The notes under the pieces were generated by a model that was not told the DNA's origin, searched no databases, and saw nothing but the letters and a program-made list of their open reading frames with translations. The position numbers and the translations under genes are program-made. Below are positions 3,514 through 8,739 of a stretch of DNA of 24,707 bases, in pieces. The stretch's first letter is position 1, and each line of letters begins with the position of its first letter. This DNA is from Candidatus Eiseniibacteriota bacterium (GTDB taxonomy: Bacteria > Eisenbacteria > RBG-16-71-46 > DASYSL01): contig JANPEF010000120.1 of assembly GCA_031431875.1 (NCBI GenBank), positions 1 through 24,707 on the forward strand. The letters are read 5' to 3'.

Positions 3514-4712
3514 CGCGCGCCTCCGGCGCCGGAAGGCGCAGGCGCCGGCTTCGCCGGCTTCAGATTTGCCGGGGCGTCGAGGCGCTCGATCAGCCAGCGC
3601 CCGTCGACGAACTTCATCTGCACGTCGATCATCTTGTCGCGGCGCGCGGCGGTGCCGTACTGGAAGCGCATGCGCTGGCGCCAGGGTCCGCCGGCGCCCT
3701 GCCCGAGCGTTTCCCACGACTCCGGCTCCTTGAACGTGCCGAGCTTGAGCGTGCGCGCCTTGGTCAGCACCGCCGGAGTGGTCACCAGCTCGCGGGCGAG
3801 AGTCGTCTGCGTCGTCTCCAGCGCGCGCAGGAACAGCACGAAGGTGGCGAAGGGCGACGGCAGCGTGCGCCGGTCGAGCACCACGAAGCCCGAGTCCGAG
3901 CGCTGCCAGATCCGCTCGGAGAGCAAGGGCGGCAGCTCGGGTCCCGGCCGGAAGCGTGCGTCGGGAGGCGACACGACCCAGGCGAGCAGTTCGGGTACAG
4001 CGTCGTCGTTCAGGTCCACGAAGCGCGCGTTGCCCCGTCCGCCCAGGTCCAGGTCGCGGCGCCCCGCTTGGACGATCCCCCAGAAGTCGGCCCGCGGCGA
4101 CATCCGCAGGAGCGTGAAGAAGGGTTCGCGCGTCTCGCCGGTGCGCCGGTGATCGATGAACCCGGCCTCGTACGGCGCCTCGGACTTGCCGGTCCACCAC
4201 ACCTCGAGCTGCATGCGTTTGCCCCCGGTCAGCAGCATGCGCTGATGACGCAGCTCGTCGCCGCGCCACCAGTACAGATAGGTGACCGCCGCGTAGCCGT
4301 CGAACGCAGGGTTGAAGAACGTCAGCGCGCAGAACTGGGGCAGCTCGGCGTCCTGCGCGAAGTCGGCCTTCACGCCGAGCGAGTCGAGAACGGTGAGCAC
4401 GCCGCGCGCGCCACGCATCGAGCGCGATCCGAGCGCGCCGAAGTACTTGCGGGCGACGTGATCGAAGTGATCGAACGCGGCGAGCTCGGTCGGGCCGACG
4501 GTATCGGACTTGGCGGGAGCGAGCAGCGCCAGGCCCTCGTCGGCCCACAGCTTGAGCGAGTCGACCGCGGGCGGACGCCAGGGCGTGGCCGGCACGGCGG
4601 TGCGCGGCTTCTCGTCGGCGGCGCGGATGGGTTCGGGCGCTGCGACGAGCGCGGCGCACGCCAGCAATGCGACCACGGCGGCCACGGGTGCGAGAACCCC
4701 GCGCCACGTCAG
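3510..4712 (-). CDS. Hypothetical exported protein (about 390-400 aa); start uncertain (CTG 4712 overlapping the DUF72 stop, or GTG 4685)
   Basis: ORF 3510..4913 has protein-like composition downstream of about 4712. Signal-peptide-like WRGVLAPVAAVVALLACAALVAAPEPIRA; FVDLNDDAVPEL resembles an FG-GAP/Ca-binding loop; C-terminus resembles that of the downstream lipoprotein. Confidence 0.8.
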   Translation of the reverse strand: MTWRGVLAPVAAVVALLACAALVAAPEPIRAADEKPRTAVPATPWRPPAVDSLKLWADEGLALLAPAKSDTVGPTELAAFDHFDHVARKYFGALGSRSMRGARGVLTVLDSLGVKADFAQDAELPQFCALTFFNPAFDGYAAVTYLYWWRGDELRHQRMLLTGGKRMQLEVWWTGKSEAPYEAGFIDHRRTGETREPFFTLLRMSPRADFWGIVQAGRRDLDLGGRGNARFVDLNDDAVPELLAWVVSPPDARFRPGPELPPLLSERIWQRSDSGFVVLDRRTLPSPFATFVLFLRALETTQTTLARELVTTPAVLTKARTLKLGTFKEPESWETLGQGAGGPWRQRMRFQYGTAARRDKMIDVQMKFVDGRWLIERLDAPANLKPAKPAPAPSGAGGAR

Positions 4713-5563
4713 CGCACCTCGCCCATGAAGTCGCGTTGCACCAGGTCGCGCATCAGCAGCGCGTTGCGCGCCGCCTGCCCGGCGTGACAGTTGTTGAAGA
4801 AGACATAGACCTGGCGCGAGCGCTCGGCCAGTTCGCGGATCTTCCGCACCCATTCCGTGAGCTCCGCTGGCGAGTAGTCGTAGTCGTAGCGATCGCCCCC
4901 ACCGCGGCCCCACCAGGTCTTTTCGTTGCGACCGTGGAAGCGCACGTAGGCGATCGAGCCGGTGAGCCGCGCGACGGGCGGAACGAGCCCGGGGAGCGGC
5001 GGTTCATCGACGGAACAATAGCCGATGCCCCGTTCGTCGAGATACCGAAACACCCGCTCGTCGAGCCACGCGGCGTGCCGGAACTCGACGAACAGCGGCC
5101 CCCGCGCCGACAGCCGCTCGTGGAGCAGGTCGAGCCGCCGCCGCCCGGCCAGGTCCGGCCGGAACGCCCACGGAAACTGGAGCAGGACTCCGCGGTGCTT
5201 TCCGGCGGCGACCAGCGGGGCGAGGCAGTCGTCGAACGCCCGCCAGGTCGCTTCGGTGGGCTCGGCGGTCTCGTGGGTCATGGATTTGTGCGCCTTGACC
5301 AGGAACTCGAAGGCATCGGGCGTCCGCTCGACCAGCCCGGCCATGATTCTCGCCGGGGGGATGCCGTAGTACGTCGAGTTGATCTCGACCGCGTGGAAGC
5401 GCGTGGCATAGAAGCCGAGCATGTCGGCCTTCCGCGTCCGTTCGGGATAGAAGTTGCCGACCCAGTCGTCGAACGAAAAGCCCGACGTGCCGAGCGTGAT
5501 GGTGCCGAGGGCGGGAGCGGCGGACATCGCGGGCGCGGAGCTGGTGGCCACGGCCGGACTCAC
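4709..5563 (-). CDS. DUF72 (YecE/YunF-like TIM-barrel) protein
   Basis: Family motifs GTSGFS..W.G.FYP, VEINSTYY, FLVKAH, LLQFP, VEFRH..W, YVRFHGRN, YDYDYS..EL, YVFFNN...A..NA. GTG start overlaps the dinB stop (GTGA). Confidence 0.93.
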   Translation of the reverse strand: MSPAVATSSAPAMSAAPALGTITLGTSGFSFDDWVGNFYPERTRKADMLGFYATRFHAVEINSTYYGIPPARIMAGLVERTPDAFEFLVKAHKSMTHETAEPTEATWRAFDDCLAPLVAAGKHRGVLLQFPWAFRPDLAGRRRLDLLHERLSARGPLFVEFRHAAWLDERVFRYLDERGIGYCSVDEPPLPGLVPPVARLTGSIAYVRFHGRNEKTWWGRGGGDRYDYDYSPAELTEWVRKIRELAERSRQVYVFFNNCHAGQAARNALLMRDLVQRDFMGEVR

Positions 5564-6780
5564 CGCAGCGCCCCGGCGCGCAGCACTGCCCGCTCGCCCC
5601 AGCGATCGCGCACCTGGTCGACGCCGCGCAGCAATCGGCGCGCCTTGCGATCGGCGATCAGCAGCCCCTCCTGCTCGACGCCACTCGCCCGCTCGAGCGC
5701 TCCGCAGGTCACGCCGATCAGCCGCACGGGCCTCGGCGCCAGGTTCTCGCGCAGGAGCTTGAGCGCGACGCGGTAGATCGTGCGGTCGTCGTCGACGTAC
5801 TCGGACAGCGCCCGCTGGCGGATCACGGTACTGAAATCGCTGTAGCGGATCTTCAGGACGACGATGCGCCCGCGGTAGTCCTCGCGCCGCATGCGCCGCG
5901 CCACCTGGTCGGCGAGCCGCAGCACCAGGCCCTCGAGCACGCTTGCCTCGCGCACGTCGGTGAGCAGCGTGAACTCGTGGCCCATCGACTTGGCATCGAC
6001 GCCCTCGTAATAGGGCACGACCGGGGTGGTGTCCTCGCCCCAGGCCGCGATCTTCATGCGCGGGCCATTGACGCCGAATGCAGCCGCCAACCGCGCCTCG
6101 GAGGCGTGTGCAAGATCGCCCACGCTGACCAGGCCCAGCCGTCCGAGCGCGGCGGCGGTCTGCTCACCAATTCCCCACAACGCGCCGACCGGCAGCGGCC
6201 ACCAGCGCCGGCGAAACGCGTCCTCGTCGAGATACGTGAGGCCGTGCGGCTTGACCACGCCCGCGGCCATCTTGGCGATCAGCTTGTTGGGCCCGATCCC
6301 GACCGAGGCGGAGAGCCCCAGCCGTTCGGCCACCCAACGCTGCACGGTGCGCCCCGCCTGCTCGGCCGCCGAGCGGCTGACGCCGTACGCGGTGCCGGAG
6401 AGGTCGAGGAACGCCTCGTCGATGCTGAACGGCTCGACCGCGGGCGTGATGCGCTTGTACAGCTCGAGCAGGTAGAGCGAGATCGAGCGGTACTTCTCGG
6501 GATCGCCCTCGACGAACACGCCGCCCGGGCACAGTCGGCGCGCCTCGCCCGTGGCCATGCCGGAGTGCACGCCGAATGCGCGCGCTTCGTACGACGCGGT
6601 GGCGACCGTGCCGCGGCGATCGGGATCGCCGCAGATGACGACCGGACGCCCCTTGAGGCGCGGGTTCGCCGCCTGTTCCACCGCGGCGAAGAACGCGTCC
6701 ATGTCGATGTGCAGGATCATGATGATTCCGCGCCTCGGGAGCGGGCGCCTGCCGGCGGCGGGTCCCCACCCGGATCGCAC
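5560..6780 (-). CDS. dinB: DNA polymerase IV (Y-family); start GTG 6780 or ATG 6720
   Basis: Intact catalytic motifs ILHIDMDAFFAAVEQ, ASYEARAFGV.SGM and SIDEAFLD; also GIGPNKLIAKMAA..KPHG, LWGIG, and little-finger domain KSMGHE...LKIRYSDF...VRLIGV. GAGG lies 5 nt upstream of GTG 6780. Confidence 0.96.
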   Translation of the reverse strand: MRSGWGPAAGRRPLPRRGIIMILHIDMDAFFAAVEQAANPRLKGRPVVICGDPDRRGTVATASYEARAFGVHSGMATGEARRLCPGGVFVEGDPEKYRSISLYLLELYKRITPAVEPFSIDEAFLDLSGTAYGVSRSAAEQAGRTVQRWVAERLGLSASVGIGPNKLIAKMAAGVVKPHGLTYLDEDAFRRRWWPLPVGALWGIGEQTAAALGRLGLVSVGDLAHASEARLAAAFGVNGPRMKIAAWGEDTTPVVPYYEGVDAKSMGHEFTLLTDVREASVLEGLVLRLADQVARRMRREDYRGRIVVLKIRYSDFSTVIRQRALSEYVDDDRTIYRVALKLLRENLAPRPVRLIGVTCGALERASGVEQEGLLIADRKARRLLRGVDQVRDRWGERAVLRAGALR

Positions 6781-6834
6781 AGCATCCTCGTACCGTCCGA
6801 CAGGACGGCCCGACTCCCGAAGTCGCGGAACTCC

Positions 6835-7308
6835 CTAGGCCGGCGTGATGTCGATGGCTTCGAGCCGCTCGACCAGCCGCGACAACTGTCGCGGGCTGAC
6901 CGTGGCCATCGCGTAGCGATCGTTCCACGCCATGTGGCCGCCCAGCGCAACCCGCAGGTCGGGGCAGGCACGCAGCAGGGCCAGTGCGCTGCGGCCCTTC
7001 AGTTCGCGCACCACCGACGCGGCGAGCTGCGACGGACGGAGGCTGACGACGAGTCGGATCTGCGTCGGCGTGATCGCCACCCCCTGGAGCTGGAGGCCGC
7101 GCTCGCGGCACAGGTCCTCGAGGATCGAGCGCAGTGCCTGCCCACGCTTGCCCGTGAGCACCGGCGCCTTGCCGCGCGTCGACCAGGTGAGCTGGTAGTG
7201 CAGGCGGGCGATGCAGACCGGCTGCCACGCCCCATCGGCGGGACGGCGATCGAGCGAACGCACGAGCGGGAACGACGGGGTCGGAAGGCTGAGCGCGAAC
7301 GTGGACAT
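6835..7308 (-). CDS. IS200/IS605 TnpA-like (Y1 HUH fold) protein, predicted catalytically inactive, 157 aa
   Basis: GAGGAG-6nt-ATG at 7308. The scaffold follows TnpA (LHYQLTWST...PVLTG...LRSILEDLCRERG...LVVSLRP...VVRELKGRSA...WNDRY..TVS). The DHVH motif reads TQIR and the Y-I-x-x-Q motif reads RLEAI. Confidence 0.85.
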   Translation of the reverse strand: MSTFALSLPTPSFPLVRSLDRRPADGAWQPVCIARLHYQLTWSTRGKAPVLTGKRGQALRSILEDLCRERGLQLQGVAITPTQIRLVVSLRPSQLAASVVRELKGRSALALLRACPDLRVALGGHMAWNDRYAMATVSPRQLSRLVERLEAIDITPA

Positions 7309-7351
7309 GATCGACTCCTCTCGGTGGCGCGGGGGCCACTGTGCTGCTGCG

Positions 7352-7365
7352 TGATCATTTGTGCA
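7352..7365. promoter_or_regulatory. Candidate second LexA box (TGATC-ATTT-GTGCA)
   Basis: One mismatch to TGCNC-N4-GTGCA; 43 bp upstream of the TnpA-like start; shares TGTGCAG with both sites at the lexA promoter. Confidence 0.55.
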
Positions 7366-7383
7366 GTCGCCGGTCATTTTGAA

Positions 7384-7433
7384 GGAGCGCCCGCAAGCGC
7401 TCCCGCGACACCCCGAACCTTACGGGCGGGGTG
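7384..7433. repeat. Two adjacent inverted repeats between lexA and the TnpA-like gene
   Basis: GGAGCGC-6-GCGCTCC (7384-7403) and CACCCCG-11-CGGGGTG (7409-7433; GTAA tetraloop on the minus strand). Confidence 0.6.
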
Positions 7434-7451
7434 GGACCGAATCGTTTTCAG

Positions 7452-8168
7452 CTAGGTGCGGCGCGATCCTCCGGGCGGACGGACGAGGCCGACGACCACG
7501 CCCAGCACGCGGAAATCATCGTCGGGGCCGACGTGACGGACTTCGAAATCGGGGTTCTCGGGCACCAGGTCGAAGCCCCGCGCGGTGCGCCGGAACGTCT
7601 TCACGGTGGCATCCTCGCCGAGCAGCGCGACCACGGCGTCGCCGTCGCGCGCATGCTCCTGCTGGTGCACGACGACGAGGTCGCCGGGCAGGATCCCGCG
7701 ATCGCGCATGCTCAGGCCCTGCACGCGCAGGGCGAAGAGATCGCTACCGTTGCCGAACAGGTCCTCGATCGCGAGGTCGCCCTCGTGGTCTTCCTGGGCC
7801 TCGATCGGCACGCCGGCCGCGATGCGACCGAGAATCCGGATGCCCCCGGAAGCGCGATCGGCGACGCGGTCGCCGTGCTCGACGCGGTCGCCGCGTTCCG
7901 AGCCGCGCGCGGCGAAGGGGCGCACGAACGTCGCGCGCTCGACACCGGTCGCATCGTTGGGCACGACCAGCACCTGCACGCCGCGCGACTTGCGATCCGT
8001 ACGGCGGATATAGCCCGCGTCCTCGAGCACGCGCAGGTGGTGGCGCACGCCATTCGTCGAGCTGATGCCGAACTCCTCGCCGATCTCGCGCATGGTCGGC
8101 GCCGAGCCCTGCTCCTGACTGCGCCGGAAGATGAAGCTGTGAATGGCGCGGGTCTTGTCGTTGATCAT
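7452..8168 (-). CDS. lexA: Transcriptional repressor LexA
   Basis: Winged HTH PTMREIGEEFGISSTNGVRHHLRVLEDAGYI, Ala-Gly cleavage site GRIAAGVP, catalytic Ser (VQGLSM) and Lys (ATVK), ENPDF. GAGGGGAG RBS. Confidence 0.97.
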   Translation of the reverse strand: MINDKTRAIHSFIFRRSQEQGSAPTMREIGEEFGISSTNGVRHHLRVLEDAGYIRRTDRKSRGVQVLVVPNDATGVERATFVRPFAARGSERGDRVEHGDRVADRASGGIRILGRIAAGVPIEAQEDHEGDLAIEDLFGNGSDLFALRVQGLSMRDRGILPGDLVVVHQQEHARDGDAVVALLGEDATVKTFRRTARGFDLVPENPDFEVRHVGPDDDFRVLGVVVGLVRPPGGSRRT

Positions 8169-8232
8169 GTCGGGCTCCCCTCGACGACGGCTGCAACGTG
8201 CGACGCGCGGTCTCGACCGCGAAGACGGGAGA

Positions 8233-8262
8233 ACGCTAAGTGCACGGGTGTGCAGCGGTCAA
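8233..8262 (-). promoter_or_regulatory. Sigma-70-type lexA promoter TTGACC-N18-TAGCGT
   Basis: On the minus strand, -35 at 8262..8257 and -10 at 8238..8233, about 65 nt upstream of the lexA ATG. Confidence 0.7.
8241..8254. promoter_or_regulatory. LexA (SOS) box TGCAC-GGGT-GTGCA
   Basis: Perfect 5-4-5 palindrome in the -35/-10 spacer of the lexA promoter. Matches the TGCNC-N4-GTGCA box known for Fibrobacter succinogenes LexA. An extra GTGCA half-site lies at 8272-8276. Confidence 0.8.
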
Positions 8263-8376
8263 GGGATTTTTGTGCAGGTCCGGGAGGGAGTGGTCGAGGT
8301 GGGGTGTCGGGGCGGGCCGGGCGGGCGGGGTCGATCTGACGGCGCTGGTTCAAGATGGAACATGAGAGGCGAATCA

Positions 8377-8394
8377 ACTTGCTGCGCAGCAAGT
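8377..8394. repeat. Perfect 18-bp palindrome ACTTGCTGCGCAGCAAGT
   Basis: Read directly from the sequence; intergenic. Confidence 0.7.
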
Positions 8395-8441
8395 CGTCGG
8401 GCCGGCCAGGAGGATCGACTGGTCCCGGGACCGGTGATTTG

Positions 8442-8523
8442 GTGCCGGCTCCGCGCCCGGACTGCCCGACTCACATGCGCTGGAGCATGTGGACTTGCAC
8501 ATCCGCGCGGCTGGAACCGGCAC
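8442..8523 (-). repeat. 82-nt imperfect nested inverted repeat (rod-like hairpin)
   Basis: Outer arms GTGCCGGCTCC / GGAACCGGCAC (fully paired with one G-U on the minus strand), inner CGGA/TCCG, TGC/GCA and CACATGC/GCATGTG. Confidence 0.5.
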
Positions 8524-8739
8524 GACGCCGCACCTCGTGCACGGCTCGCCGGCGGACGGCTGCCCCCGAGGCCACGATCCTTCGTCGCTCCACCGACGCG
8601 CACCGTCGACCGGTCGACGATTTTCGCGTGCGCGCCCACCAACAGATGCTGCGCGCCGAAACAGAAGTGCGCCACGAACACGCTGCAGGACAAGCGCATC
8701 CCGCGCTCGAGAGCAGAACCGCGGCGGCACCGATCAGGC

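What the first reader, a model, noticed from the sequence alone, without database searches (positions are those of the whole stretch)
6835..7308. Catalytically dead, apparently domesticated IS200/IS605 TnpA between lexA and dinB
Seen: an uninterrupted 157-aa ORF with a strong RBS keeps the Y1 transposase scaffold (LHYQLTWST, PVLTG, LKGRSA, WNDRY). By-eye alignment shows the conserved N-terminal His as Q39, the HUH (DHVH) as T82-Q83-I84-R85, the catalytic Tyr as R148 and the metal-ligand Gln as I152. There is no tnpB. Established: TnpA needs HUH plus Tyr for cleavage, and it binds ssDNA hairpins, with activity linked to ssDNA at replication forks. Inference: selective loss of all catalytic residues with the fold intact suggests exaptation as an ssDNA/hairpin-binding accessory of Pol IV. 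It would fill the slot that the inactive RecA-like ImuA holds in lexA-imuA-imuB-dnaE2 cassettes.
Basis: partly seen in the sequence, partly recalled or inferred. Interest (0 to 1): 0.88.

Follow-up and report, generated by a model that had tools for sequence, protein, structure and literature searches.

The report
Dead IS200 transposase under LexA control
A small gene between lexA and dinB descends from a jumping-gene enzyme, has lost every DNA-cutting residue, and is kept next to lexA behind its own LexA docking site in one order of uncultured bacteria, so it looks like an undescribed DNA-damage-response gene, not a helper specific to polymerase IV.

Summary
Window 6835-7308 (-) is an intact 157-aa ORF with a GAGGAG RBS. 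It matches Pfam Y1_Tnp (8.4e-16) and folds like ISDra2 TnpA.

It is domesticated, not decaying:
- It is single-copy in a 98%-complete genome.
- It is found in 94 of 206 genomes of the phylum, all in one order, and in 0 of 104 genomes of the other families.
- The family forms one clade, and no member has the Tyr (always Arg or Lys).
- dN/dS (median 0.38) matches lexA (0.41) and dinB (0.37).

The Pol IV-accessory reading is only partly supported. lexA lies directly upstream in 35 of 35 non-redundant loci. A TGCAC-N4-GTKCA LexA-type box precedes the gene in 34 of 35. dinB follows it only in families f1 and f2. In f3 (81 of 89 genomes) the gene stands alone and dinB lies elsewhere.

Outgroups carry lexA-Y-dinB-DUF72, where Y is a small DUF6504/ImuB-C-like ORF. 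Y travels with dinB; the dead transposase travels with lexA.

Most likely it is an SOS-induced, non-cleaving, dimeric ssDNA or hairpin binder. That function is inferred, not shown. I found no published description.

The parts
8241..8254 (.). LexA operator of lexA: perfect palindrome TGCACGGGTGTGCA, 73 bp upstream of the lexA start
   Evidence: A perfect TGCAC-N4-GTGCA box sits 44-90 bp upstream of lexA in nearly all loci of the order and in many outgroup loci.
7452..8168 (-). lexA (238 aa) with LexA DNA-binding and S24 peptidase domains; the Ala-Gly site, Ser153 and Lys190 are conserved
   Evidence: TIGR00498, 1.9e-46; invariant columns.
7428..7440 (-). 13-mer TCGGTCCCACCCC, found only here and upstream of recA in the whole genome; role unknown
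7383..7404 (-). G+C-rich hairpin (GGAGCGC-N-GCGCTCC) followed by TTCAAAA: a terminator-like element between lexA and X. Clearer hairpin plus T-run forms occur in the relatives.
   Evidence: fold; intergenic sequences of 35 loci. The simple terminator scan did not call it.
7352..7365 (-). LexA-type box TGCACAAATGATCA, 44 bp upstream of the X start codon
   Evidence: A box of this type lies at a fixed distance upstream of X in 34 of 35 non-redundant loci.
7315..7320 (-). Ribosome-binding site GAGGAG
   Evidence: Read from the sequence.
6835..7308 (-). X: 157-aa catalytically dead IS200/IS605-type TnpA homologue (Q39, T82-Q83-I84-R85, R148, I152)
6733..6824 (-). Conserved 92-nt structured element between X and dinB, a likely dinB leader
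   Evidence: -74.2 kcal/mol, z -4.1, 0 of 200 shuffles as stable. (8 of 37 pairs with compensatory change). (no Rfam match). (found only in f1 genera g1 and g4).
5560..6720 (-). dinB (Pol IV); ATG at 6720 fits the relatives, and the ORF listing also gives an upstream GTG at 6780
   Evidence: Relatives align from residue 21 of the long form.
4709..5563 (-). DUF72 gene, overlapping the dinB stop by 4 bases; the conserved last gene of the lexA...dinB-DUF72 cluster
   Evidence: PF01904, 4e-64. Synteny.

Best explanation
X descends from an IS200/IS605-type Y1 HUH transposase. The element landed just downstream of lexA in an ancestral lexA-(ImuB-C-like Y)-dinB-DUF72 SOS cluster in the ancestor of one order of Candidatus Eisenbacteria. 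It lost its nucleophilic Tyr (now Arg or Lys) and its mobility, and became a single-copy host gene.

It is transcribed from its own LexA operator, so it should be induced by DNA damage. In this window it heads the unit X-dinB-DUF72.

The protein keeps the TnpA fold and the two residues that define the obligate IS200/IS605 dimer. It most likely acts as a non-cleaving dimer that binds single-stranded or hairpin DNA exposed during the SOS response. Basic residues (R85, R148) now sit where the metal and the Tyr once held the scissile phosphate.

Shown: ancestry, loss of catalytic residues, fixation, selection, linkage to lexA, and the operator-like box. Inferred: LexA regulation in vivo, dimerisation, DNA binding and the physiological role.
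For: Ancestry and fold.

Loss of catalytic residues across the family: in 101 family sequences the Tyr column is always R or K (or a gap in fragments) and never Y. The Gln column is L, I or V. HUH reads QVR or RVH in f1 and HVH in f3.

Single origin from active enzymes: in a quick tree the family is one clade (SH-aLRT 99; 49 labelled rows plus 3 unlabelled fragments). Its nearest outgroups keep HUH and Y...Q.

Not mobile: one PF01797 match in the 98.45%-complete genome. The flanking intergenic sequences are not repeated in the genome.

Distribution: 94 of 206 genomes of the phylum carry it: f1 9/9, f2 3/3, f3 81/89, all other families 0/104. Seven of the 8 f3 genomes without X also lack a lexA match, so the locus is probably unassembled there.

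Selection: NG86 median dN/dS is 0.38 for X (519 pairs), 0.41 for lexA and 0.37 for dinB (36 pairs). For the closest pair, X is 0.16, lexA 0.12 and dinB 0.04. X and LexA pairwise distances correlate at r = 0.91, with equal mean divergence of 0.41 and 0.40.

Linkage and regulation: lexA is directly upstream in 35 of 35 non-redundant loci. A TGCAC-N4-GTKCA box lies upstream of X in 34 of 35, and the perfect palindrome lies upstream of lexA itself. In the own genome the same box type precedes the Y2-polY-dnaE2 cassette, and a 2-mismatch version precedes recA.

Insertion story: 16 of 20 outgroup lexA loci have dinB downstream, 14 of 20 have Y, and none has X.

Dimer determinants: P92 and T136 are invariant. 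By position in the alignment, not by a residue-level alignment to IS608, they correspond to the Pro after beta4 and the Thr in beta5. PMC3479197 names these as the IS200/IS605 dimerisation determinants that monomeric RAYTs lack (passages read).
Against: No experiment exists and every genome is a MAG. LexA binding to the box is inferred from motif conservation only. The box upstream of X in this window has 2 mismatches to the palindrome.

DNA binding and dimerisation are extrapolated from canonical TnpAs.

The HUH motif is strictly kept in f3 but lost in f1, so the two branches may not do exactly the same thing.

In f2 the homologue lacks the last strand and the C-terminal helix, so it may be decaying there.

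dN/dS by NG86 is inflated by saturation and GC3 bias. It is informative only relative to the neighbouring genes.

The careful tree search did not finish, so the quick tree was used.
Confidence: 0.6

Rival explanations
1. X is a dedicated accessory of Pol IV. It would bind ssDNA or hairpins, or the clamp, and load or target DinB, taking the place of the ImuB-C-like protein Y in this genus.
For: In f1 and f2, X lies upstream of dinB-DUF72. No LexA box lies between X and dinB, so dinB is probably read from the X promoter.

In the window's genus, Y is absent from the operon; the X-dinB gap is only 114 bp.

Quentin et al. [quoted passage not shown]
Against: In f3 (81 of 89 genomes with X) no dinB lies within 1.5-4 kb of X (26 of 26 loci). 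X is followed by a convergent gene in 13 of 18 loci checked. The dinB orthologue sits elsewhere in 5 of 5 genomes, with Y upstream in 4 of them.

In f1 genera g2, g3 and g4 and in f2, X and Y coexist, so X did not replace Y when it arrived.
Confidence: 0.12
2. X acts on the SOS switch itself through protein contacts. It would modulate LexA cleavage or DNA binding, or the RecA filament, much as DinI, RecX or phage gp7 do elsewhere.
For: Adjacency to lexA is invariant (35 of 35 loci) even where dinB has left. The two genes co-diverge (r = 0.91). X and recA share a 13-mer found nowhere else in the genome, plus the same left half of the LexA box.
Against: lexA and X are separate transcription units, with a hairpin and T-run between them, so adjacency may simply be inherited from the insertion site. 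Nothing in the sequence points to a protein-binding surface. The conserved features are those of the DNA-binding TnpA core.
Confidence: 0.12
3. X keeps an enzymatic activity without Tyr, for example metal-dependent hydrolytic nicking of ssDNA in the f3 forms that retain D-HVH.
For: D-H-V-H is strictly kept in the f3 sequences examined, which suggests the metal site still matters there.
Against: The window's protein and most of f1 have no His in the motif (QVR or QIR). The third metal ligand Gln is hydrophobic in all members. No alternative conserved nucleophile is seen.
Confidence: 0.05
4. X is a functionless relic of an old IS insertion, or its ORF is kept only because it carries the promoter and leader of dinB.
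For: In f2 the homologue is truncated at the C-terminus. One f3 locus (L047) has a broken X and no box.
Against: The frame is intact in nearly all of the 94 genomes. Amino-acid conservation equals that of LexA. dN/dS is below 1 and like that of the neighbours. A basic residue is conserved at the former Tyr position. The gene persists in f3, where no gene depends on it for transcription.
Confidence: 0.05

Closest known systems
IS200/IS605-family TnpA (Y1 HUH transposases: ISDra2, IS608, IS200; Pfam PF01797)
   Same: Same fold and length. Best sequence and structure matches. The core motifs W-x-T-R/K, LKG-x-S and W-x-x-x-Y-x-x-T-V-S are retained, as are the Pro and Thr that define the obligate dimer.
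   Different: No catalytic Tyr (Arg or Lys instead), no metal-ligand Gln, and no HUH in this window. There are no IS ends, no tnpB and no extra copies. It is fixed beside lexA behind a LexA-type box.
RAYT / TnpA-REP, the known domesticated Y1 transposase
   Same: A single-copy, vertically kept host gene derived from the same superfamily.
   Different: RAYTs keep HUH and Tyr, are monomers, have a Y...NP context and are flanked by REP repeats (PMC3479197, PMC6006769; passages read). X has none of these. 4er8 is a much weaker structural match (1e-5).
lexA-imuB-C-polY SOS operon (Geobacter type; Aravind 2013 PMC3765255, Timinskas and Venclovas 2019 PMC6511836)
   Same: The outgroup and ancestral arrangement here, lexA-Y-dinB(-DUF72), fits this known operon type.
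   Different: X is an extra gene inserted after lexA. Neither paper's main text contains the word 'transposase' (term searches). In the window's genus the ImuB-C-like gene has been lost from the operon.
Catalytically inactive accessory subunits of mutasomes (ImuA, ImuB)
   Same: An enzyme-derived protein that has lost catalysis and is under LexA control next to a translesion polymerase in this window.
   Different: It is unrelated in fold, and its conserved partner is lexA, not a polymerase. This is an analogy only.

Membership tests
IS200/IS605 TnpA (Y1 HUH transposase) | Sequence and fold of the Y1_Tnp domain | tested here: met
   PF01797 at 58.6 bits (cut-off 23), NCBIfam at 59.4 bits (cut-off 55). 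Foldseek top hits are ISDra2, IS608 and IS200 TnpA.
IS200/IS605 TnpA (Y1 HUH transposase) | HUH metal-binding motif | tested here: not met
   Q83-I84-R85 in the window. QVR or RVH in f1, HVH only in f3.
IS200/IS605 TnpA (Y1 HUH transposase) | Nucleophilic Tyr on helix alphaD with Gln four residues on (Y...Q) | tested here: not met
   R148 and I152. None of the 101 family sequences has Tyr.
IS200/IS605 TnpA (Y1 HUH transposase) | Part of a mobile element: subterminal hairpin ends, several copies, often tnpB | tested here: not met
   One copy in a 98%-complete genome. Flanks are not repeated. The neighbours are lexA and dinB. Position is fixed in 35 of 35 loci.
IS200/IS605 TnpA (Y1 HUH transposase) | Obligate-dimer determinants (Thr in beta5, Pro after beta4) | tested here: met
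   T136 and P92 are invariant in 51 sequences. Their role is taken from PMC3479197, and the match to the IS608 residues is by position in the alignment only. Dimerisation itself was not tested.
RAYT / TnpA-REP | Active HUH and Tyr (Y...NP), flanking REP or BIME repeats | tested here: not met
   No Tyr and no HUH. No repeated palindromes around the gene or matching the flanks elsewhere in the genome.
LexA (SOS) regulon member | LexA operator in the promoter region | tested here: met
   TGCACAAATGATCA at 7352-7365. The box is conserved in 34 of 35 loci, and the same motif occurs as a perfect palindrome upstream of lexA.
LexA (SOS) regulon member | LexA binding and damage induction | not testable with these tools
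   Needs EMSA or footprinting and expression data. No cultured host exists.
   dinB is adjacent in 9 of 35 loci only. It is absent from the X locus in f3. Y, not X, follows dinB.

The most novel reading that the evidence does not exclude
A transposase has been turned into a damage-response DNA sensor. X would be a LexA-induced, nuclease-dead HUH dimer that clamps hairpins or other folded ssDNA in gaps and at stalled forks, with Arg replacing both the metal site and the Tyr. There it would protect or flag these structures for the SOS machinery (RecA, translesion polymerases). This would be the first dead Y1 HUH protein recruited as a core SOS component, born from an IS insertion into the lexA operon.
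Probability: 0.35. Interest if true: 0.8.

Novelty: new variant of a known kind. Interest (0 to 1): 0.62.

Why it matters
Domesticated transposases are well known in eukaryotes. In bacteria the main Y1 example is RAYT, which is still an active enzyme.

Here a Y1 HUH transposase lost catalysis in stages: Tyr first, then HUH in one branch. It was nonetheless kept for the whole history of an order, wired to LexA and glued to lexA. That gives a clean natural series for asking what a TnpA scaffold does without chemistry. It also adds a candidate new player to the SOS response of an uncultured phylum.

The large phylogenomic survey of this superfamily discarded sequences without HuH and Y motifs as probably non-functional (PMC6006769), so such lineages have been systematically overlooked.

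The work also corrects the attractive but weaker idea that X is a Pol IV subunit. The polymerase-linked small protein in these genomes is the ImuB-C-like Y.

Tried and rejected
- **X with LexA complex prediction** (both as alignments): verdict 'no answer', score 0.00 against a mark of 0.32, and the controls were not run. This says nothing either way.
- **REP/IS-end idea:** blastn of the two intergenic regions against the whole genome found only the locus itself plus 15-26-nt chance matches.
- **Rfam** on window 5400-8600 at E <= 1: no match.
- **Conserved downstream partner of X in f3:** the glyoxalase gene seen in L049 occurs in no other locus.
- **Three lexA-X copies in G095 as evidence for a mobile two-gene module:** one extra copy (L045) has the same chromosomal neighbours (EamA, Asp-protease-PDZ) as the standard locus, and the other (L046) is broken. 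Mixed strains in the bin are more likely.
- **Genome-wide count of exact boxes:** 6 found against about 6.5 expected from base composition. The motif is not enriched as such; its value lies in position and conservation.
- **Simple promoter/terminator scan** of window 5400-8500: no sigma-70-like promoter, and no terminator at the lexA-X hairpin.
- **Single-protein locus search:** found only 2 loci; the alignment query was needed. L009 (Pedosphaera) is a 30-residue chance hit and was dropped.
- **Fibrobacter LexA motif:** I recall a published TGCNC-N4-GTGCA motif for Fibrobacter, but the searches did not confirm it. The literal motif string occurred in no paper, and the two papers opened did not give it. 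It stays a recollection.
- **Literature searches for a prior description:** searches listed nothing relevant. Passages read in PMC6006769, PMC3765255 and PMC6511836 do not mention it.

Full report
**1. The observation**

On the minus strand of the window, an uninterrupted 157-codon frame runs from ATG at 7308 to the TAG stop at 6835-6837. GAGGAG lies 6 nt upstream of the ATG.

The protein matches Pfam Y1_Tnp (PF01797) at 8.4e-16, 58.6 bits against a cut-off of 23. It just passes the NCBIfam IS200/IS605 transposase model at 59.4 bits against a cut-off of 55.

phmmer against PDB sequences puts ISDra2 TnpA first (2xm3, E 2.3e-15). The printed alignment, together with two MAFFT alignments that include canonical TnpAs, gives the following correspondences:

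| Canonical TnpA residue | Window protein |
|---|---|
| His of Y-H-L | Q39 |
| D-H-V-H | T82-Q83-I84-R85 |
| Tyr132 (nucleophile) | R148 |
| Gln136 (metal ligand) | I152 |

An AlphaFold2 model built on 51 sequences has mean pLDDT 84, with residues 1-23 disordered. Its best PDB matches are ISDra2, IS608 and IS200 TnpA (E 2e-11 to 1e-7). The RAYT 4er8 matches far more weakly.

The neighbours are a canonical lexA (7452-8168), dinB (5560-6720) and a DUF72 gene (4709-5563), all on the same strand.

**2. Organism and distribution**

Near-identical loci come from MAGs labelled Candidatus Eisenbacteria. The window's own assembly is 98.45% complete and has exactly one PF01797 match, this gene.

A profile of the family run over 206 genomes of the phylum hit 94 of them:

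| Group | Genomes with a match |
|---|---|
| f1 (window's family) | 9 of 9 |
| f2 | 3 of 3 (weak, E about 1e-13) |
| f3 | 81 of 89 |
| 15 other families | 0 of 104 |

- f1, f2 and f3 are the three families the tool labels 'same order'.
- There is almost always one copy per genome.
- Seven of the eight f3 genomes without a match also lack any lexA match, so the locus is probably just unassembled there.
- In 1.84 billion representative proteins, only three clusters score below 1e-30. The rest of the list is ordinary TnpAs at about 1e-10 to 1e-15.
- G072 is flagged as unpublished. It is counted in these tallies, but its locus duplicates the public record L005.

**3. Dead, but kept**

I examined 101 family sequences. 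These were 77 proteins from the database searches plus 24 translations from the window and fetched loci; two canonical TnpAs served as controls. The pattern is:

- **Tyr column:** always Arg or Lys, or a gap in fragments. Never Tyr.
- **Gln column:** Leu, Ile or Val.
- **HUH:** differs by branch. f3 keeps D-H-V-H. Two f1 genera have R-V-H. The rest of f1, including this window, has Q-V/I-R.
- **N-terminal His:** the other way round, kept in f1 (Q only in the window's own lineage) and replaced by L, V or F in f3.

So the nucleophile was lost once, at the base of the family. The metal site decayed later, in one branch only.

In a quick maximum-likelihood tree with 106 other hits, the family is a single clade (SH-aLRT 99; 49 labelled rows plus three unlabelled fragments that are clearly members). 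The nearest outgroups still have D-H-V-H and Y...Q. The careful tree search did not finish, so this rests on the quick tree.

Selection was measured against the neighbouring genes:

| Gene | Median NG86 dN/dS | Pairs | Closest pair |
|---|---|---|---|
| X | 0.38 | 519 | 0.16 |
| lexA | 0.41 | 519 | 0.12 |
| dinB | 0.37 | 36 | 0.04 |

Absolute values are inflated by saturation and GC3 bias, so the comparison with the neighbours is what counts. Pairwise protein distances of X and LexA from the same 30 loci correlate at r = 0.91, with equal means of 0.41 and 0.40 (the pairs are not independent). X therefore evolves like a vertically inherited host gene under the same constraint as LexA.

**4. What it is linked to**

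tblastn of the four window proteins against all fetched loci gave these results:

- lexA lies directly upstream, on the same strand, in 35 of 35 non-redundant loci that have upstream sequence.
- dinB-DUF72 follows X only in f1 and f2: 9 of those 35 loci, plus two f2 loci where only the profile sees X.
- In the 26 f3 loci there is no dinB within the 1.5-4 kb fetched.

In 18 f3 loci checked with Pfam, the next gene is a convergent EamA transporter (11 loci) or a convergent GTP cyclohydrolase II (2 loci); the ORF I picked in the other five had no Pfam match.

In five f3 genomes there is a single lexA beside X in four; the fifth has a second lexA elsewhere. The dinB orthologue (49-55% identity) lies far away or on another contig.

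**5. Regulation**

- **Box upstream of lexA.** A perfect palindrome TGCAC-N4-GTGCA sits 44-90 bp upstream of lexA in nearly every locus of the order and in many outgroup loci. In the window it is at 8241-8254.
- **Hairpin between lexA and X.** A G+C-rich hairpin with a T-run follows the lexA stop codon; its stem sequence varies among the loci.
- **Box upstream of X.** After the hairpin comes a box of the type TGCAC-N4-GTTCA, at a fixed distance from the conserved start of X, in 34 of 35 loci. By my estimate, at most 2 mismatches would arise by chance in about 1 locus in 10. The one locus without a box (L047) also has a broken X. In the window the box is TGCACAAATGATCA at 7352-7365, 44 bp before the ATG.
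- **Other boxes in the own genome.** An exact box precedes a second cassette on contig C55: a small Y-like ORF, a Y-family polymerase and a DnaE2-like polymerase. A 2-mismatch box with the same left half as the X box precedes recA.
- **No box before dinB.** No box lies between X and dinB in f1, so in this window dinB-DUF72 is probably read from the X promoter.

That LexA binds these sites is an inference from the motif and its conservation. My recollection that a similar motif was published for Fibrobacter could not be confirmed in the library.

**6. The ancestral operon and the real dinB partner**

In 20 lexA loci from the other families of the phylum, dinB follows lexA in 16 and X is never present.

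Where there is a gap of about 300 bp between lexA and dinB, it holds a conserved 83-84-codon ORF, here called Y. Y is found as follows:

- in 14 of 20 outgroup loci
- in all three f2 loci (lexA-X'-Y-dinB)
- in f1 genera g2, g3 and g4 (lexA-X-Y-dinB-DUF72)
- in f3, directly upstream of the relocated dinB (4 of 5 genomes) and of a dinB paralogue

Y gives marginal Pfam hits to DUF6504: 18-30 bits against a cut-off of 24.2, with 2 of 5 above the cut-off.

In size, operon context and conserved C-terminal Trp, Y fits the stand-alone ImuB-C protein of the lexA-imuB-C-polY operons described by Aravind et al. 2013 and by Timinskas and Venclovas 2019 (passages read). That identification is an inference.

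The window's genus alone has lost Y from this operon; its X-dinB gap is 114 bp. The history that fits best is:

1. The ancestor carried lexA-Y-dinB-DUF72.
2. An IS200-type element inserted right after lexA in the ancestor of one order.
3. It lost Tyr and mobility and was fixed behind a LexA box.
4. In f3, Y-dinB moved away while X stayed with lexA.
5. In this genus, Y was lost.

**7. Mechanism**

The shared features of all X proteins are the TnpA core and two invariant residues, P92 and T136. By position they correspond to the Pro after beta4 and the Thr in beta5. The RAYT structure paper names these as the determinants of the obligate IS200/IS605 dimer, and they are missing in monomeric RAYTs (PMC3479197, passages read).

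At the former active site, the nucleophile is a conserved Arg or Lys. In f1, one His of the HUH is Arg.

I therefore propose a damage-induced dimer that still binds single-stranded or hairpin DNA in the old active-site groove but cannot cut it, with basic side chains taking over phosphate contacts. DNA binding, dimerisation and the cellular role are inferred, not shown.

The idea that it assists Pol IV is not excluded for f1. Canonical TnpAs are reported to contact the beta clamp and fork-like DNA (PMC6006769, passages read). But this cannot be the family-wide function.

A role on LexA or RecA through protein contacts is an open rival. So, for f3 only, is a residual metal-dependent activity.

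**8. Comparison with what is known**

- **IS200/IS605 transposase:** X works with the scaffold of one but fails the defining tests of membership as a transposase. It has no HUH (in this window), no Tyr, no element ends and no extra copies.
- **RAYT:** X is not one.
- **Surrounding operon:** it is of a known type (lexA-imuB-C-polY).

I found no paper that describes a Tyr-less Y1 protein in the SOS regulon. The main survey of the superfamily removed sequences lacking HuH and Y motifs as probably non-functional.

Earlier notes of this scan describe the same family in other Eisenbacteria genomes. They agree on the main reading, but they are not independent evidence. Several of them call the gene phylum-wide. 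In my scan it is confined to one order of the phylum as this tool delimits it.

**9. Verdict**

- Domestication and loss of catalysis are well supported.
- The Pol IV-accessory interpretation is only partly supported.
- The best reading is a new, LexA-linked, non-catalytic descendant of an IS200-type transposase.
- Novelty: a new variant of a known kind.
- Interest: moderate to high. The gene is real, conserved and undescribed, but its function is still inferred and its hosts are uncultured.

Noticed in passing
L054:4800-5051, L052:4716-4967, L042:4440-4694, L005:4539-4787 and others; absent from window 6721-6834: A conserved 83-84-aa ORF (Y) lies between lexA (or X) and dinB in outgroups, f2 and part of f1, and upstream of the relocated dinB in f3. 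Pfam hits to DUF6504 are marginal. It fits the stand-alone ImuB-C protein of lexA-imuB-C-polY operons. It has been lost from this operon in the window's genus.
   Followed up: partly
window 6733-6824 (-): A 92-nt conserved structured element lies just upstream of dinB: -74 kcal/mol for the 120-nt region, z -4.1. Eight of 37 pairs show compensatory change in 6 sequences, and the central 30 nt are invariant. There is no Rfam match. A covariance model finds it only in f1 genera g1 and g4. It may be a new cis-regulatory leader of dinB.
   Followed up: partly
window 7428-7440 (-) and own genome C143:7487-7499 (-): The 13-mer TC[G/T]GTCCCACCCC occurs only twice in the 3.75-Mb genome, upstream of X and upstream of recA. 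In each case a LexA-type box with the same left half (CTGCACAAATG) follows 60-130 nt downstream. The same motif-plus-box pair recurs in a congeneric genome (L089). It may be a second shared regulatory site.
   Followed up: partly
own genome C55:38483-46500 (L081): A second SOS cassette: an exact LexA box, a Y-like small ORF (38539-38790), a Y-family polymerase (IMS domains) and a DnaE2-like Pol III alpha. This is an imuA-less mutasome variant.
   Followed up: partly
own genome C153:34643: An exact TGCAC-N4-GTGCA box lies about 220 bp upstream of an ORF whose N-terminus looks like MraZ (named from recall, no family search run). This hints that the cell-division cluster is under LexA control.
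   Followed up: no
window 4709-5563 (-) and loci L002-L007, L041-L069: A DUF72 gene is the conserved last gene of the lexA...dinB cluster across the phylum: 13 of the 16 outgroup loci with dinB, and all f1 and f2 loci with enough flank. This suggests an unrecognised DNA-damage role for this DUF72 clade.
   Followed up: no
f3 orthologues, e.g. L049:4050-4427, L025, L035: X proteins in f3 end in a conserved C-terminal tail of the form [L/F]-A-x-A-S, which is absent from f1. It is reminiscent of C-terminal degron or partner-binding tails.
   Followed up: no
L041:3990-4586, L043:3996-4442 (f2): The f2 homologue of X stops right after the L-W motif and lacks the last beta-strand and the C-terminal helix. 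It is either a shortened functional form or a decaying copy.
   Followed up: partly
G095: L044, L045, L046: One MAG shows three lexA-X pairs. One is degraded, and one sits on a short contig with the same neighbours as the standard locus. Mixed strains in the bin are more likely than true paralogues.
   Followed up: partly
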